Shown here piece after piece: positions 51,438 through 64,000 of a DNA stretch of 64,000 nt (its first letter is position 1; every line of letters starts with the position of its first letter). The notes beneath the pieces were generated by a model. It was not told the origin of the DNA and did no database searches. It saw only the letters and a list, made by a program, of their open reading frames with translations. The position numbers were made by a program, and so were the translations under genes. The DNA is from Ruditapes philippinarum (lineage: Eukaryota). The DNA is taken from assembly GCF_026571515.1 (NCBI RefSeq), contig NW_026862663.1, forward strand, positions 868,001 through 932,000, in the 5' to 3' direction.

Positions 51438-52451
51438 TTATGAAACCTTGCTTTCACAAAGACGTCTTATCTTATTTATTCTAGCTGTTGGTAAAGATCC
51501 AATACTTTTAAACATACTATTTAAAAATTGATGGCAGTGAAGACTTTCCTGACCCACAACAGTTTCCTTGAACAAGTCTGTAACCTGACTAAAATCTGTA
51601 GTCTTTAAAATTCTATCTTTGTTATTGAGAACAATGACTAGAGACGCTCGCATCAAAATCTTTGGCCCTTCATAAAAGAGGCAGTCCCAAATACGCAAGA
51701 CGGTGTCTACTGGTAAGACATCAGCAAATAGACAGATAAACCATTTCATTCCAATAAGGCACCATGATAAACCTTGTGTTTCAAGATGATGGTAAATATC
51801 TGGTGCTTTCCATCTGACAAGTTCACCAAGAACTTCCTGGTCAAGTTTGACAGCATGCATGTCAGGGTGATAATAATCTGGTAAAATATTGTTGATTAAT
51901 GTATCCATAAGCCAGAAAACTTTTTCTTCATAATTGTCCTCACTTTTCATAACAAGCAGCAACAAGCCCACCACAAAATTCATCCCCTGACAGTAACCTA
52001 TTGTCCTGTTTCTGTGTCCTATAGCTATCAAAATATTGAATAAAGGCTTTCTCAAATTTGTAGCAGCTCGAGTGTCCGCAAAATGCTTATTGTCAGGGAA
52101 TGTTCTATGTATATCCATGTTGATGGTATCCACAAGTTCTTTATTATGTTCCATATCGAGCATTTGTTGAAATAGATGAGGATTGCTCTTCATCCTGTCA
52201 TAGGCTCCACTAAGATGCAGCCATGCTGTGGGACGTTCAGCCGATGGAATACCTTTCCTACAAAATCGTTTTACTGTTGCTGATTTGGTGACAGTTGCCT
52301 TGTTTCCGACTACTTGCTGCCACCTACTAGCTCTTCTTGTCAACACAGGAAGGTAAGACGAAGTAAATTCATTGTAAACAGTATGATCAAAATCATTAGG
52401 TCGCACAAACCCGTATCCGTCTTCTTGATTCTCAAATCTTTTCTCCGACAT
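51438..52451 (-). CDS. GRTP1: TBC-domain Rab GTPase-activating protein, GRTP1 (TBC1D6)-like, 337 aa, no coding introns
   Basis: N-terminal DGYGFVRPNDFD...YLPVLTRRASRW typical of GRTP1; catalytic fingers INMDIHRTFP (IxxDxxR) and GYCQGMNF; KWFICLFADVLPVDTVLRIWDCLFYEG. Confidence 0.9.
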   Translation of the reverse strand: MSEKRFENQEDGYGFVRPNDFDHTVYNEFTSSYLPVLTRRASRWQQVVGNKATVTKSATVKRFCRKGIPSAERPTAWLHLSGAYDRMKSNPHLFQQMLDMEHNKELVDTINMDIHRTFPDNKHFADTRAATNLRKPLFNILIAIGHRNRTIGYCQGMNFVVGLLLLVMKSEDNYEEKVFWLMDTLINNILPDYYHPDMHAVKLDQEVLGELVRWKAPDIYHHLETQGLSWCLIGMKWFICLFADVLPVDTVLRIWDCLFYEGPKILMRASLVIVLNNKDRILKTTDFSQVTDLFKETVVGQESLHCHQFLNSMFKSIGSLPTARINKIRRLCESKVS

Positions 52452-52673
52452 TTCTACATTGATTGAATCGTTGTATTAGCATCGGCAGCATCTGTTACCA
52501 TTAGTAAGGCATAACCCCGCCCACAAACCGGTGTATATAGCAATTTTTATGGAATGCAAATATTACGCGAAGTAAATATTTCGGTTGACCTCGGACTTTG
52601 GCGTTAATGATAGCAAGTGCGAGATAAAGCAAACGGACAGGAGAGAATTTCGTGTTTTTGCCTTTTTACACAC

Positions 52674-55600: not shown

Positions 55601-58600
55601 ATTGCCCTTTTTTTTTTCATGCTATTTTGTCCAGAGCTTATCTCAAAAAGTATTTGAGGTATCAACTTGAAACTTCATAGGTGGATAGATTTTACTGAGG
55701 AGGGATGCAGCACACAAGAATGATAACCTACCCTGCATTATTTTTCAGTAATTGCCCTTTGTTATTTTCAGCCATCAGTATTCACATAGGTTTCAAATCT
55801 GTAATCACTATAGCCATCAGTTTTCATTACCAAAAGACCTCTTAAAATGGAATTATTCCGCTCTACTACATATACATTCTTCCAATGAGCAAACACATTC
55901 GGCGGGGGATGGCCATGTTGACATGGCTCTTGTTTAGTTAAACATTGAATTATGATATCGAACTACTAAAATAATCAATAACAAACGATAATTTAGTCAT
56001 CTGCAAAAAATATTGCTGTATTTTGAACATTAAATTAAGAGTTTAACCAAGGAGGTCAATTCCATAAACTGAACGTTACTTGCTGGTGATTGTGAACCCT
56101 ACTTGTGAGTTTACGAATTTTATCTGTACCCTGACTTGTGAGTATTTTAAAAGATTTAATGGAGAGAACGTTTATCATTTAACATATTTATTTGTTTATT
56201 GACAGGCAAAATGGAAGAATTCAGTTGTCTTAATTGCCCCTTTCTCTTAAAAAAAATCGGAAACACTATTGTTCACAATTATGACATAAGAACAAAAGCT
56301 AAAAATAACAATTTCTCAGTTTGACAACAATAACATAAACATTAAAAATTAAAATCATACTCCAAAGACGTAAGAATTGAAAAAAATAAAAGAAGGACTT
56401 TAAAAGCAAATGATATTACATGTACAAAAACAGTAAAAGTTTCAAGACAAGAAGGACTTGAAAAATAATCTTCAATTAAGAAATGTCAAAAAATCAAAAC
56501 GCCTGTTAAAGATGTTCACATATCGACAAAAGATACGTTTTTACTTTTTAGTACAGATGACTAAGAGTTTAAGTTAAAACTTGGAGTCAAAATTATTCCA
56601 CAGATCCCACATTTAAGTTGTGTTTTCAGGGGAATGTTTGTTACACGAAAGCTACTGTCAAGACCCTCAACTACAAATGATTCATCCAAATCCATCTGAA
56701 ATACATGTATATGGCAATTTATAGAAAGGAACTGGATTTATATATATCTTTTGACTTAAGATCACTTATGATAGCCAATGATAAACTTTTCAAGTTGTGT
56801 GAAAAGAAAACTAACAGGTTGTCTTAGACACTGGCAAGACTGTTAACTATTTAAAAATATTAAAGTGGAAATAAACTTGCAAGAGTGAAAACTACCTTTT
56901 ACACATTTAACAACAATATGCAGGAAACTCCTTAAAATGATTTATTATGAGTGATCCTAGTCGCGCATGTAAGAAATAGAAATTCAAGGCATTTATGAGA
57001 ATATAAAACCGTGTCTCAAAAAGCATAATGAAATCAACGGTACGTGTAAAGCTTTCAACATGTTGAAATAAGTAATCCTGTGATGATCTTTCGAGGAGGA
57101 TGGATTGATATGTGGCGTTATATAACGGTCACGTCAAGAATAACAACAATGCAGTTGAACTTAATAGTAGAAACGTTTATAGTACTTGTGTTATATCTTA
57201 GCTTTATATCTTTTCAAAGAAAAATGAATGGTAAATGAAGATAAGATTTGTTGGTTGATAATTCCTGTCAAGAAATAATTTTCTTTCTAATTCGTATTAC
57301 AAGCTACTTCATGCTTGTATTTCCATGGAAAGTGAGAACATGATGAAGGTCCATTCATGTGCAGTATTGGTTACTTATATAGAACTAAAAGATGTGTCAT
57401 GCTCTTGTGACACAATAACTTCATATTCTGCCAGATATAATTTGGAACATAGGACAAAAACAAAAAAAATCATCAAAAGTGACTCGCAAGTTATGGTTCA
57501 GTGAAAACACAAGTAGGGTACAGATCATTAAAATTGTTTTAGCAAAACGGGTACAGTTATCAGAATGTTCGCCTCTATTATTTACTGTGTTTTTATCAAT
57601 ATCCAAAGATATCCACACAAGTGTCTGTGCAGTAAGACAAGTTTAGACAATAAAATTAAGATTCAGATATTAGTTATAGTGAAATAAAACAATTTTAGGC
57701 ATAAATTTGCTTGTGTAATCGGCGTGTGTTGCCATAAACAAAACACGAAGCGAAGAGCAAAGCATTTTATGCGCATTAATTAAAAGAAGCTGGATATAAA
57801 TGTATCTATAAGCAAAGAAAAAATATTTCTTAATATGATTCAAATGTTTATAACCATCTCAGATTAAATGCAGGCCGTCTTAAAAAGTTTTATTGGTCAC
57901 CCCGCCTGTTTGTACTGAACTGATGTTGAGATCTTCTCACAAGATCCGGTTGGGGTACAAATCGTTTATATACTGTGCCAACTACCCCCACAATTTTTAT
58001 GTGACAATAATTTAAAAAGACAACCAAACCAAGATTTATTTCAAATCAGAAAATATAGGCAATGTTTATCACATTATCATTTACTAATATGATACAAATA
58101 AGTATTCAATATGGAAGAATTTGAAAACAATATTTGTCATTTTTAGAATTTCACTTTGAAAGGTGAAAAGTACATTGTACTCACCAGACTGATTTTTACT
58201 CAATTTCCGCCATAAAACTTTTGTAGGGAAAGAAGCTTGACAAGATCAATCATCTGCATGAATCAGGTTTAAATCAAAGAACAAAAGCTATCAAAAAATC
58301 CCATAGTCCCACAGTGCCCAATGTCCCAGAGTACCCCAGTCTCCCCTATATAAAAAGGCTTTGTTGTGGCATATAGTACTAACCAAGGCATTAAAGCCAT
58401 TTGGCAACTTTATTTAACCTTTCAGAAGACTTTTAACTTGTGTTTCTAATTAATGAAGCTTTTGTTGATAAGTATTTTTCATGTTAAACTTGATTATGTG
58501 ATTTCAGGCAGTGGCTTATTGAATATATTGTGGATATCATCACAGTTGTTTTGATGTCACGTTTTTTCCTTGGTGCAGCAGGTGTTGCTGCAGGGGCTGC

Positions 58601-61600
58601 ACTTATCTGTAATGTATCTCCTTGGCTTGTTGCCAAACCACAGATAGCCACCCTGGATTACCTTAATGCTGCAAAACTACAAACTCTTGATGGGAAAAAA
58701 ACAAATTTTAGTGTAAGTACAAAATTATTTGTTTGGATAATCTTTAAAGTTGCATACTCAATTGAAAGACTAAAATGTTTACATATTATTAGGCTGTATG
58801 ATTATTACAAAATTTGAAACAGTGCTTTATTGAGATTTATAAAATAATAGTATACAATTAAAAGTATGTATTTATTTCCTATATTTGCAGGCCAAAGAGT
58901 TGTGGCAGAGAAATGGTGCAGTTGTAATGGCTGTCCGTAGACCAGGATGATCTTTATGTAGAGCGGTCAGTTGTTTATTAACTTTTTCTCCTTTTCTTAT
59001 TTGTTGTTTAAGGATACATTATGATGCATAGTTTTCAAAATCAATGGATAAATGCCAGTGTCCAGAAGAAGACCTCTATGATGCTTAAGATTCAAAGGAC
59101 TTCTATGTCTGGGACTGATAAAAAATCTCCAGAATAAATTAGGCTTTGTTTCACACCTACATAGATGCAGAATAATATAATTAAAATGCTCTTGTTGATT
59201 CAGTTTTTCCATGCAATCATACTACTAGTATTAATAAGGTTTAGTTTAGCTAAATAACATTGATGTTAGAAGGGTTACCCTTCTAGTTTATATGAATTTT
59301 ATTATATATATGTCCCTTCTGAAGGCATTTCACTTTTTCTTGTTTCACCAAGCTGAAAAAACATATAATTATTAAGATTCCTAAAGCATACCTTTCTACA
59401 TGAAGCAATCCCACCCTGACGATTTCTTTATTCTGGTAAATGTTTCCTGTCTTTGAAAACACCAACAATTTTGTATAAAATATTGATGGTACATATATTT
59501 GTATGTTTTCAGGAAGCCCAGGGCTTGTCCTCCCTTGTAGAGGAGATGGACGCCCGAGGTATCCGCTTACATGCAGTAGTGCATGAGGTTCTTGGTGCTG
59601 AAGAATTTAAATCATTCATTAAAGGAGATGTTTATTTAGATCCTGAGGTAAGATGATAGTAAATTGTGTGCATGTGCTAAGTTAGTAGACAAGGTTTACA
59701 GAGGGGAAGATAGTGTAAGTGTAAGTGTTGGGATGATAAATCCTGTGAAAAATTGGGGGATGAAAATTATCAATAGAAGGTGGTGTTAATATGTGTTATA
59801 TGATGATTAAAGCATGCAAGTTTAGTTTAAACATATTTTGTTGCATCAAATACATGCCAAATGTAATACAATTGATGAGTATATATATAACAAAAAGCAA
59901 ATGGGTTGGGCAACGAGTTCTAGCAACATTAGATTAAGCCCTTCCTAGGAAAGTATGCAAATTTACCAATGTTTGAAGGTAGTGAGACTATGCTCACTAG
60001 ATTTGATTGTAATATAATGTCTCCGATATATTTTGAAGATAAAACTTCTGAAGTAATCGGTTGTTAGTCTTGTTAAATAGTAATTTAAAGAAATAAATAC
60101 ATGATTCAATACTTGTTATATTTGTATTATGTTTACACTGTTGACAAAACTAACATAATGACATATTTCAGAAACATTTTTATGGCCCTCAAGAGAGATG
60201 GATGAATATTCCAGGAATTTTTAATTTCGAAACACTAGCCAGTATTATCAAAGAAATCCGTAAAGGAACTCCAGGAAATTCAAAAGGTGAAGGACGACTC
60301 TTAGGAGGTAAAAATATTTTAATTTAAAAGTTATGCACTAGATTAATGAATCTTGTGGATTGTATATTTTAAGCTATAGTTACCAGCTGAAGGTACTGAC
60401 CAGACCATCAGACTCATGGATAACTGTTTAAGACAGTAACAAGACTACTGAGTTTCTGCTGAAACAGTTTCCCTTAATATCCCAGCCTGTGTCAACAGCC
60501 AGTATTTGTTTTTTTCTTGCAAATTCAAATAATTAATTACATTGTATAGCTCAAAAAGAAATTAGGAAAACAAAAAATTTTTTTGGCACTTTTTCTTATA
60601 GCTCCATAAAGATTTACAGCTTCATTGACAATACCATCATGACATCATCTTAAATTTTCCATTTTTAGAAAATCCAGTATGATATGCAAGAAAATGTAAA
60701 TAATCATATATAGTTAAGACCATGTTTGACATTTCTATTAACATTTCCTTCTACATACACAGACCATGGTAATTCACGGAACTATTCATATAATTTAGAG
60801 TATTTCCAACATAGCTAGCAACCATAATGATTTACTAGCGTCAACACTCTTATAGTCTATACAGATTGTTTTGTAAGGTGCTTAACAGCATTTGATATTA
60901 AAATCCCTTTATTGAACTATGGATAGGTGTAAATTTGAAGCAGGGCCAATTATTTTCACAAAATGGTGTAGTAAATATAAAGTAAGCATATGCAGCAAAC
61001 CCTTAAAGATCCTGTATGTTGTAATTTAGGATGTAAAAACACTTAAGTGAAATTTTATATATGTATATAATTATTCTTCTAAAACAATTTCCAAACATCC
61101 AAGAATATCTTAAATATGTATTGCGATTGTTATGCCGCATTATGAGTAATCATCAAAATATATGCAGTCATTTCTTTTTGAAAAATTTGGCTTGGACTTT
61201 ATCGACAATAAATTTCTAATTACCTCCCTTTATTTATTTGGTATTATTGTTATAAATAATGCTTTTTGGAATTTACAATATTGATAAATCTAAATTTGAG
61301 CATCATATAAATGATATAAAACCATAAAAAAAATGAGTTACAGGATCTTTAACCTGCTGGAATTGAAAGGGATTAGCCTTTGCCATCAGTGTAGAGCCTG
61401 TCCAGCCTGGACATCAGTGCAGTCCGACCAAGCCTAATACTGTTGGAAGCTCAATTTAGGTATTTTGTTACTGATATATCTTCAAATGCAGAGCAAATCC
61501 ATTTCACATATTTCACAGTTGAGGGTAAATAATGATAATACAGAATTTCATCAATATTAACTTTTTCATTTCAGCCGTGTTTGTGATAGGTCCAGGTAAT

Positions 61601-61702
61601 CAAGGTATAGTGTTCCAGCACCATGAGAAAGTTATTGGTGATCTTGCAAACCTGGACGACATCAAAGATGCCATATCTAAAGTCAATCTTCCACGTGATT
61701 AA
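52674..61702 (+). CDS. PRXL2A: Peroxiredoxin-like 2A / selenoprotein U with Sec (TGA 58948-58950), ~226 aa; exons (52674-52675), 58508-58712, 58891-58965, 59513-59647, 60172-60307, 61575-61702
   Basis: ATLDYL..AKLQTL..FSAKELWQRNGAVVMAVRRPG[TGA]SLCRAEAQGLSSL..LHAVVHE..KGDVYLD..HFYGPQER..GNSKGEGRLLGAVFVIGPGNQGIVFQHHEKVIGD matches the PRXL2A/SelU family on both sides of the TGA. The start is either the split ATG (52674-52675 + 58508) or the ATG at 58554. Confidence 0.92.
53800..54710 (+). repeat. Decayed satellite-bearing element (caaggtcaaggtca-rich units)
   Basis: Recurring ggtcaaggtca motifs with related intervening sequence; ends in ggcaacgcc followed by a poly-C run. Confidence 0.5.
54973..57977. 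mobile_element. 3.0 kb non-autonomous DNA transposon with ~47 bp TIRs beginning CACAG
   Basis: cacagtatataaacgatttgaaccccaaccggatcttgtgagaagat (54973-55019) versus atcttctcacaagatccggttggggtacaaatcgtttatatactgtg (57931-57977): one mismatch; flanked by CC on both sides. Confidence 0.82.
55190..55935 (-). repeat. ~155-160 bp satellite array, truncated HINE-like insert inside the CACAG element
   Basis: Four units of gaaacttcataggtggatagat...gaggag...gcacaagaatgataactct; end ggcgggggatggccatgttgacatggctcttgttt. Confidence 0.72.
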
Positions 61703-62050
61703 CATAAACTTGTCATCCCGTAGATTAATATGTTCCGATCAAAATTCATCAGCAGCAAATGTATTTAATTTAAATACAGTTCAAGGAAGTGAATTCTTAA
61801 TGATTTTCTTTAATTTGTTCTTAACTCAGACAGTTTGATGACAATAAATACCCAGTATTAAAATGAGACATAAAAATTGAGTATACTATACAAAGTTCTT
61901 TCAGGAATACATTAAAATGAAGGTTGTGTATGTTCTGGAATTATGTTACAAATTTAATGTTATACAGAATATTCTAGTCTTAATCAGTATAATATCCATT
62001 CCTGTCCCATGTGTTTTATAATATAAAAGTTAACATTTATTGTAGAACAG

Positions 62051-62141
62051 AAGATATTATGTTATGATAAAATGAAACTCTCAAGTTCACTGGTTAACTT
62101 CAGACTTGAGAGTGGATGTGAAAGCATTTAACTTATATCTT
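62051..62141 (+). promoter_or_regulatory. Candidate SECIS element in the PRXL2A/SelU 3' UTR
   Basis: Core ATGAA (62072-62076) opposite GGAT (62114-62117); perfect 10 bp helix II ACTCTCAAGT/ACTTGAGAGT; apical TCA bulge plus mini-stem CTG/CAG; lower helix AAGATA..GTTA/TAAC..TATCTT; about 370 nt after the stop codon. Confidence 0.85.
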
Positions 62142-64000
62142 GTGTTCTCTATTCTAAATGTTGATTTTAATTGAAATAATGTGATTTTAATGTTGTAAAT
62201 AAATGTTAGAGGTTTATTAAATTTTGTACAAAATTCTTGTGAGTTTATTGTCTTCTTATATTGTATGACATACATTGTGAAGTATCAGCTTAAATGTGTC
62301 CTTGAAAAAAGTGGGAATTTTAAATGCACATATATTTTATGTTTCATAAACAGACATCTTAATTGTAATACATTAAAAAAACCTATATAATAAGATCATT
62401 AGATGTAATGTATAAAATTTAGGACAAAACTTTTTCAGATCAAATTTTCAAAGACAAAAGTGATCACATTGCGTCACCTGATGACACAGCCAATTAAGCA
62501 GTTATTTATATAAAGGAGTGATTGACCAGTGTTTTTCCCCCCTTATGCCGTGGCAAATTATTATCATATAGCTACTGTGTAGTAGAGATACAAAAATCAT
62601 AACAGGCCAAAATGCTTTTTTTATTTAAGGGTCATAACTCGTCCAAAAATCATTCAACTGGAAAAACCATTTCTTACGCGCAATTGCATGAGGTATCGAA
62701 CAATCAAAGATGGAGGGCCATAACTTGGCATTCCACTGGAAAACCCATGTCATTTCCTCTATCAAGAACTTGAACTACATGTACCATTAATCTTGTTAAA
62801 AATTTCATTCAAATTCTATAACTGGTATAACAGTAAACTTAAAAAAAATAAAAATCATTCAAGAGCCATAACTGACTAAAGTCACTTAACTGGAAATGCG
62901 GAAGATATGCCAAACTAGACTTTGACAGCTCTTTCCTGTAGTTTGGATGAAATTGGACCAGTTTTTTTTTTTAGGAGTAGTCCGTACAATTTTTGTGACG
63001 GACGACAGAGAAATAAGCTGCTACTTTGAAGCAGGGGGCGCAAAAACAACTATGTTTGTTAATCTTTTTTGATAATGGTCATTAACTTCAATACTTATGA
63101 AGCTTATGCATTGAATCTTTATATGTGAATGCACCTTGAAACACTTGCTTTCAGGCCAGAGGTCACTTGGAATATTACTTGTTCCTAGAATTTCCAGCAT
63201 TGCATGTAAATGCACATTGAGCGTTCTTTCAGTCACATCCTTTCATGTAAAAATTTTCTATGTAGATGTACCTTGAGTCCCATTTTCATGTCAAAAGGTC
63301 AAAGTTACTTAGTGAAAACTGATAACCAAACATTAAACTGGCCAATATTGCACCGTTTTTGGTAATACCTGCCATACCCATTTTTGGTCAAAATGACCAT
63401 TATTTATTTTGGATTAAGTATGATGGTCAATTATGCTTCTGTCTGCCATATAAAAAAAGGTAAAGGTTTGTGTAATCTTTTCTTCAAATTATCTCTTTAG
63501 TTTTAACTATTCAGAACTGAGAAAAATGGAGCACATTGCTTCTCAGAGCAAGCACTTGATATACATGTACCTATTAAGTTTCTATAAATGGTGGCCCAAG
63601 TTAACCTTTTTTGTTCAGAGATGAAAAATTAATTTGAAACTTGGTAGGGCACCAGTAGTCCTTAATGGAGACAATCAAACCCATTTGTTTAATCTTGAGA
63701 AAGATCCTACAGAGGTAAAGAACTTGCAATTTTATCTTTAGCAGACAATTTAAGGATCAATGGTCCATTTATACAAATGTTTGAATTCTTGAGAATCATT
63801 TTGACCCTTTGCTTTTGGTGATCTTGAAGCCTTTTTCAGTAATCAATGTTAACAAGCCATTAGTTTGACAAAATTACATACATCATTGTATGTATAGCTT
63901 TTATGGATATAGATTTGGTGCCGTTTGTCAGTCACTTTTGGAACATAACACTGAAACCGTTCTAGTTACATACCTTTAACTTTGTATGTGGCTACATCTC

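What the first reader, a model, noticed from the sequence alone, without database searches (positions are those of the whole stretch)
62051..62141. SECIS with a non-canonical apical motif (UCA in place of AAR)
Seen: AUGAA/GGAU kink-turn core, perfect 10 bp helix II, a type II-like apical mini-stem (CUG/CAG around GUUAACUU) and a lower helix. At the position 11-12 nt after AUGA, where unpaired AA is expected, the sequence is UCA; the only apical AA is in the terminal loop. Established: most eukaryotic SECIS elements have AA here, with CC in mammalian SELENOM and SELENOO as known exceptions. Inference: a SECIS variant that strict pattern searches could miss.
Basis: partly seen in the sequence, partly recalled or inferred. 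Interest (0 to 1): 0.75.

Follow-up and report, generated by a model that had tools for sequence, protein, structure and literature searches.

The report
Clam SECIS with CA replacing AA
An RNA hairpin in the expressed tail of a mollusc selenoprotein U gene has the shape of the signal that makes ribosomes read UGA as selenocysteine, but carries CA where almost all such signals carry AA, and a related species shares the CA, so it likely works as a natural variant that standard pattern searches miss.

Summary
The hairpin is real. It lies 369 nt behind the stop codon of a spliced, transcribed SelU1/PRXL2A-type gene whose in-frame UGA sits on the first Cys of the family's CxxC. It is inside the transcript, is the only stable SECIS-shaped hairpin in the UTR, and reads show no AA allele. 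One ortholog (L032) keeps the UGA and a matching hairpin, with 5 of 13 pairs changed on both sides although the UTRs are otherwise unrelated. One base (C62088) separates the element from canonical: with A there it passes all four SECISearch1 patterns, without it none. The ortholog's bulge is ACAA, so CA is shared, but it also keeps an AA one place further on. All 17 control elements have AA. Function is untested and only two species were seen. Verdict: likely a working type II SECIS with a mixed CA apical motif, between the known AA and CC forms; a new variant of a known kind, of moderate interest.

The parts
58554..58712 (+). SelU1/PRXL2A-type gene, coding exon 1 (start codon inferred; an upstream non-coding part is possible)
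   Evidence: (contig joint to exon 2)
58891..58965 (+). coding exon 2, holds RRPG-UGA-SLC
   Evidence: (GT..AG joint in 11 reads of X23 and contigs X18, X7)
58948..58950 (+). in-frame UGA, codon 73, predicted selenocysteine of a UxxC motif
   Evidence: UGA at the same place in L032; CxxC in 30 of 150 homologues; 4 end at RRPG
59513..59647 (+). coding exon 3
60172..60307 (+). coding exon 4
   Evidence: (GT..AG joint in 15 reads of X23)
61575..61702 (+). coding exon 5, ends with TAA at 61700-61702
61703..62235 (+). 3' UTR as covered by RNA reads; AATAAA at 62198 and ATTAAA at 62216 are candidate poly(A) signals
62051..62141 (+). type II SECIS-shaped element including lower helix
62072..62076 (+). 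5' core AUGAA (AUGAU in a common allele)
62077..62086 (+). helix II 5' arm, 10 Watson-Crick pairs with 62104-62113 (C62082U allele gives a U-G pair)
62087..62090 (+). apical bulge UCAC; the AAA slot is 62088-62090 (CAC); ortholog has ACAA; A62089 is the one shared unpaired adenosine
62091..62102 (+). apical mini-stem 62091-93/62100-02 (extendable by C62090-G62103) and terminal loop 62094-99
62104..62113 (+). helix II 3' arm
62114..62117 (+). 3' core GGAU (fits KGAW)

Best explanation
The hairpin is likely the working type II SECIS of a transcribed, spliced bivalve SelU1/PRXL2A gene, predicted to recode its in-frame UGA as selenocysteine, and it carries CAC where the apical AAA normally stands. 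Shown: gene structure, UGA on the family's first Cys, hairpin inside the mRNA 783 nt behind the UGA, CA fixed in the reads seen, matching hairpin with CA in one ortholog. Inferred from known SECIS biology: SBP2 binds the intact AUGA/GA kink-turn core; helix II places the apical bulge at the usual distance; eEFSec domain 4 contacts that bulge, and here would make do with one fixed unpaired adenosine (A62089) preceded by C, a form between the AA and the mammalian CC elements, possibly with lower efficiency.
For: Gene and UGA: 633-nt reading frame over five exons with one internal TGA; two GT..AG joints seen in raw reads, a third in contigs; Pfam AhpC-TSA_2 and named PRXL2A relatives from bivalves; CxxC at this place in 30 of 150 homologues, 4 end at RRPG, 18 begin just after it. 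Transcript covers the hairpin and ends near 62235. No canonical alternative: 0 hits with four SECISearch1 patterns in 61703-62300; with the apical rule lifted this hairpin folds at -15.6 kcal/mol, the four other sites at -1.5 to -2.3. No other letter at 62087-90 at 3% or more in about 55 (X23) and 50 (X24) reads or in contigs X1, X16. The only two variants in 62051-62141 keep the structure. Ortholog L032: same UGA and introns; sequence-only alignment of the two hairpins gives 25 of 26 cells paired, 5 pairs changed on both sides, none in six slid controls, 18 of 500 shuffles as high; the whole UTRs show no local similarity above shuffles (score 26, shuffled median 25). CA sits at the standard spacing in both (offset 11 here, 12 in L032, which has a 1-nt bulge). 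17 of 17 control SECIS candidates behind Dio, GPx, Rdx and Sep15/SelM-family genes of this genome have AA, so the change is gene-specific. In-silico A at 62088 restores all four pattern matches.
Against: No functional test. Only two species; two shared bases in a 4-nt bulge can be chance, and the ortholog still has AA at offset 13, so it may be near-canonical. The ortholog's upper hairpin is weak (-5.3 to -5.8 kcal/mol, z = +0.2; whole element z = -0.85). Invariance of the bulge in reads is expected anyway (P about 0.85 at the UTR's variant density), and two compatible variants have P about 0.14. Deleting the AAA/G motif or changing AA to TT cuts recoding strongly in mammalian tests (PMC2761289, PMC1802603, passages). 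One of three raw-read runs (X21) showed next to no reads on the gene. The variant table over the UGA exon was truncated (296 rows not shown), so the UGA was not checked read by read. The 17 controls were picked by eye and include allelic or paralogous copies.
Confidence: 0.6

Rival explanations
1. It is a working SECIS, but the functional slot is the last two bulge bases: AA in the ortholog, AC here. The ancestral element was near-canonical with a shifted AA and this species carries a recent, weakening change.
For: L032 has AA at offset 13, inside the published 11-13 range, and misses the patterns only through helix mismatches. C62090 pairs with G62103 (p 0.82), which looks like a local stabilising change.
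Against: Most control elements start their A run at offset 11, which maps to CA in both species; the second base C is shared.
Confidence: 0.25
2. The element is decayed or nearly inactive; the UGA is mostly read as stop and the gene yields a 72-residue fragment or little protein.
For: Apical AA mutations abolish or strongly lower recoding in mammalian systems (PMC1802603, PMC2792357, PMC2761289; passages).
Against: Frame intact over five exons, spliced mRNA present in two raw-read runs and four contig sets, perfect helix II, single-copy gene, UGA kept in the ortholog.
Confidence: 0.08
3. The AA in the terminal loop (62096-97) stands in for the missing bulge AA.
For: It is the only apical AA and is unpaired (1.00).
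Against: It lies 19 nt behind the core instead of 11-13; the ortholog's loop has no AA at that place.
Confidence: 0.05
4. Assembly error, rare allele or chance hairpin, with the true SECIS elsewhere.
For: No Rfam SECIS_1 match even on 101 bases at E up to 10.
Against: Reads and contigs from several studies agree on the bulge; no alternative in the transcribed UTR; covariation with the ortholog. Rfam also gave 0 matches at gathering score over the 20 control loci with AA elements, so its silence says little.
Confidence: 0.02

Closest known systems
Eukaryotic type II SECIS (consensus of SECISearch3, PMC3753652, and SECISaln, PMC2647825)
   Same: RUGAN/KGAW core, 10-11 pair upper helix, apical bulge plus mini-stem, lower helix, position in the 3' UTR of a UGA-bearing gene.
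   Different: Apical run reads CAC, not AAR; fits only SECISaln's looser 'run of Ms' (A or C).
CC-type SECIS of mammalian SELENOM and SELENOO (PMC3316567) and human TrxR3 (PMC2761289)
   Same: Gene-specific, lineage-limited loss of apical AA in a genome whose other elements keep AA.
   Different: Mixed CA rather than CC; arose in a bivalve SelU1 gene; not tested for function, unlike the mammalian elements.
SelU1 / PRXL2A (FAM213A, C10orf58) selenoproteins of fish and invertebrates (PMC3473315, PMC3316567)
   Same: AhpC-TSA_2 domain, RRPG-U-xx-C motif; Sec forms in invertebrates are already described.
   Different: The passages I read report no unusual apical motif for SelU; the supplement with invertebrate SECIS drawings could not be read.

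Membership tests
Eukaryotic SECIS, type II | Core RUGAN / KGAW with tandem GA | tested here: met
   AUGAA 62072-76 and GGAU 62114-17; identical in L032
Eukaryotic SECIS, type II | Helix II of standard length closing directly on the core | tested here: met
   10 Watson-Crick pairs, 4 of them changed on both sides in the ortholog
Eukaryotic SECIS, type II | Apical bulge plus mini-stem (helix III) | tested here: met
Eukaryotic SECIS, type II | Lower helix (helix I) and internal loop | tested here: met
   (helix I rule of the patterns is passed)
Eukaryotic SECIS, type II | Unpaired AA (or CC) 11-13 nt behind RUGAN | tested here: not met
   offsets 10-13 give UC, CA, AC, CU; no AA allele in reads. 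The looser SECISaln definition (run of A or C) is met.
Eukaryotic SECIS, type II | In the 3' UTR of an mRNA with an in-frame UGA, over 111 nt downstream | tested here: met
   783 nt in the spliced mRNA
Eukaryotic SECIS, type II | Binds SBP2 and drives Sec insertion | not testable with these tools
   needs bench assays
Rfam RF00031 SECIS_1 | Score at or above 35 bits | tested here: not met
   no match at E up to 10; control AA elements also gave no match at gathering score
SECISearch3 Infernal/Covels model | Score and grade | not testable with these tools
   model not available; by the published grading code the element would lose the point for AA/CC
SelU1 / PRXL2A selenoprotein | AhpC-TSA_2 domain and closest named relatives PRXL2A | tested here: met
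   (no tree was built; subfamily rests on similarity and database names)
SelU1 / PRXL2A selenoprotein | UGA aligned to the first Cys of RRPG-CxxC and conserved | tested here: met
SelU1 / PRXL2A selenoprotein | Selenocysteine present in the protein | not testable with these tools
   needs proteomics or labelling

The most novel reading that the evidence does not exclude
Bivalve SelU1 genes carry a third, lineage-conserved apical class of eukaryotic SECIS (CA, beside AA and CC) in which a single unpaired adenosine suffices for the eEFSec contact; it is the natural intermediate on the path from AA to CC and hides Sec genes from pattern-based annotation.
Probability: 0.35. Interest if true: 0.62.

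Novelty: new variant of a known kind. Interest (0 to 1): 0.45.

Why it matters
The apical bases are the least understood conserved part of the SECIS and are reported to be the contact of eEFSec domain 4 (PMC12254956, PMC12861234; passages citing the cryo-EM work, which I could not read). A natural element one base away from canonical, in a genome whose other elements have AA, gives a clean test pair (CAC against AAC/AAA) for what that contact needs. Practically, database proteins of this gene in bivalves skip or stop at the UGA exon, and AA/CC-based patterns miss the element. It does not change the mechanism of Sec insertion, and pattern searches already miss about a quarter to a third of true elements (PMC3753652, Table 1), so the gain is modest unless the CA proves widespread.

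Tried and rejected
Rfam scans: no SECIS match for the element, its ortholog or the controls; uninformative. Alternative core at 62064-68: no helix can follow it (sequence). An apparent similarity between the UTRs upstream of the hairpin did not exceed shuffles. Two-sequence covariance model: finds only its two training hairpins (next best E 0.38); a genome-wide run with it was not possible. RF00031 over the own genome returned mostly one repeat family (29 of the 30 loci fetched), so it was useless as a host baseline; I used gene-anchored controls instead, for which 16 of 18 control loci (L037-L053, L056) gave a usable candidate (none in L042, L051; two in L043), L044 and L041 being doubtful. 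The SECIS of the UGA-bearing paralog on C4568 was not found within 14 kb. Fold and complex prediction were not run: they cannot address an RNA motif. Papers not held: the selenosome cryo-EM paper, the first SelU paper, a 2009 review and a 2000 SECIS structure paper; one search returned an unrelated paper.

Full report
Observation. It folds with z = -3.29 (2 of 200 shuffles as stable). The upper part has ten Watson-Crick pairs (62077-86 with 62104-13) between AUGAA and GGAU. U62087, C62088 and A62089 are unpaired with probabilities 0.83, 0.98 and 1.00; C62090 pairs with G62103 at 0.82, giving a 4-pair mini-stem and a 6-nt loop. A core with 10 of 10 pairs arose in 3 of 2000 dinucleotide shuffles of the UTR, and this is the only such site on the + strand of the window.

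The gene. Five exons (58554-58712, 58891-58965, 59513-59647, 60172-60307, 61575-61702) give a 210-residue frame with one internal TGA at 58948, in RRPG-UGA-SLC. Raw RNA reads of run X23 show two of the joints (11 and 15 reads), and contigs X18 and X7 show these and the exon 1-2 joint; run X21 has next to no reads on the gene. The protein belongs to Pfam AhpC-TSA_2 (through the database fragment P0001 that matches it) and its closest named relatives are PRXL2A-like proteins of the bivalves Mactra, Mya and Dreissena; run labels include 'mollusc metagenome'. Among the 150 best homologues listed, 30 have RRPG-CxxC (or RRFG), 4 end exactly at RRPG, 18 start just behind that place and 3 have another residue; named ones are PRXL2A/FAM213A. 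Several bivalve database entries skip the UGA exon or start behind it. The gene and hairpin are single-copy in the assembly. Sec-containing SelU1 in invertebrates is already known (PMC3473315, passages).

Inside the transcript, and not an error. Reads of X23 and X24 cover the UTR to about 62235, behind AATAAA at 62198 and ATTAAA at 62216; the libraries are unstranded, so strand rests on the splice sites. No other letter was listed at 62087-90 at a 3% threshold, at depths near 55 and 50, nor in contigs X1 and X16. The UTR has 21 variable places in 533 nt; two lie in the element, 62076 A>T (26 of 57 reads in X23, 52 of 52 in X24) and 62082 C>T (25 of 55, 55 of 55). Both keep the structure, but this is weak evidence (P about 0.14), and an unvarying 4-nt bulge is expected by chance (P about 0.85). 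The core lies 783 nt behind the UGA in the mRNA.

No canonical alternative. I re-implemented the four SECISearch1 patterns from supplement S1 of PMC3753652. None hits in 61703-62300; with the apical rule lifted, this hairpin folds at -15.6 kcal/mol and the four other sites at -1.5 to -2.3. As a control the same code finds 15 of 17 other SECIS candidates of the genome, and an in-silico A at 62088 makes the element pass all four patterns. Rfam RF00031 gives no match, but also none at gathering score over the 20 control loci, so that result carries little weight.

Ortholog. It has the same introns and the UGA and a hairpin at 2550-2598. A sequence-only alignment of the two cores gives 25 of 26 cells paired, 5 of 13 pairs changed on both sides, 1 on one side, 1 broken, a 1-nt bulge, and no two-sided change in six slid controls; 18 of 500 shuffles reach this. 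I chose the aligned stretches after seeing the two cores, and two sequences are few. The whole UTRs share no local similarity above shuffles. The ortholog's upper hairpin is weak (z = +0.2). Its bulge reads ACAA against UCAC here, and it too is missed by all four patterns; the three pattern hits elsewhere in its UTR fold at only -0.8 to -4.5 kcal/mol.

Register. In 17 SECIS candidates behind Dio, GPx, Rdx and Sep15/SelM-family genes of this genome (picked by eye as the nearest good hairpin, scan without an AA rule, several being allelic or paralogous copies), all 17 have AA at offsets 11-13 and 11 have U at offset 10; 8 read UAAA. The U of 'UCA' is thus ordinary and the AAA slot reads CAC here and CAA in the ortholog. 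CA is shared at the standard spacing; the ortholog also has AA at offset 13, which keeps a rival reading open (AA there, AC here). Either way one adenosine is kept, and the change is specific to this gene rather than to the species.

Mechanism. Inferred from the known pathway: SBP2 binds the kink-turn core, and eEFSec domain 4 is reported to contact the apical loop (PMC2792357, PMC12254956, PMC12861234, PMC11881835; passages; the primary cryo-EM paper was not held). The core is intact, so the variant would affect only the second contact. Mammalian data show the apical motif matters: deleting it lowers recoding sharply, though swapping apical domains changes it only 2- to 5-fold (PMC2761289), and AA to TT abolishes expression (PMC1802603). 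CC works in SELENOM and SELENOO (PMC3316567). A CA form that keeps one A and has C at the other place lies between two tolerated forms, so I rate a working element at about 0.9 in all, 0.6 for the CA reading.

What is known. The passages read give AA or CC only (PMC3316567, PMC3753652, PMC2375036, PMC3473315, PMC13059024, PMC3965025). PMC2761289 adds TrxR3 to the CC cases. SECISaln (PMC2647825, first of two parts of the text) writes the run as M (A or C), which covers CAC formally; its supplementary table could not be read, nor that of PMC3473315. Ten paper searches showed no report of a CA or CAC apical motif or of a bivalve SelU SECIS, but most subscription papers are outside the library, so this is not proof of absence. 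Earlier notes of this scan had nothing on this gene.

Verdict. A real SECIS-shaped element of an expressed bivalve SelU1 gene, one base from canonical, with the odd base shared by one relative. It works like a type II SECIS; it fails the strict AA/CC membership feature and meets the rest that could be tested. New variant of a known kind; interest 0.45, rising to about 0.6 if CA is fixed across bivalves and supports readthrough.

Noticed in passing
window 51438-52475, - strand: An uninterrupted 345-codon frame encoding a RabGAP-TBC domain protein (Pfam E 7e-53); no intron within the frame, so possibly a retrocopy or a single-exon gene.
   Followed up: partly
L002-L031 (top RF00031 matches in G000): 29 of 30 best Rfam SECIS matches fall in one repeat family with a canonical AAA bulge; probably the selenoprotein-encoding Naiad retroelements described in clams (PMC8557442, passages). 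Not checked for a reverse transcriptase here.
   Followed up: partly
L054 5660-5875 (G000:C4568): A second SelU-family gene with RRFG-UGA-PFC, so a second likely selenoprotein of the family; later exons and SECIS not found within 14 kb.
   Followed up: partly
L045 (oriented 2007-2099), L046 (1299-1391), L049 (1323-1416): In three GPx loci the SECIS is followed at once by a second conserved hairpin with UUGA/UGA core-like ends and no apical AA: a possible tandem kink-turn or second SECIS-like element.
   Followed up: no
L053 oriented 680 and 6674: The Rdx-family SECIS occurs twice, 6 kb apart, the second copy with a helix mismatch: local duplication.
   Followed up: no
window 60969-61439 and 62618-62665: Repeat fragments in intron 4 and behind the gene draw hundreds to thousands of foreign RNA reads.
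   Followed up: no
window 62076 and 62082: Two variants in the SECIS have near-equal frequencies in each run (about half in X23, all reads in X24), suggesting two common SECIS haplotypes; one turns the core's A-G pair into U-G.
   Followed up: partly
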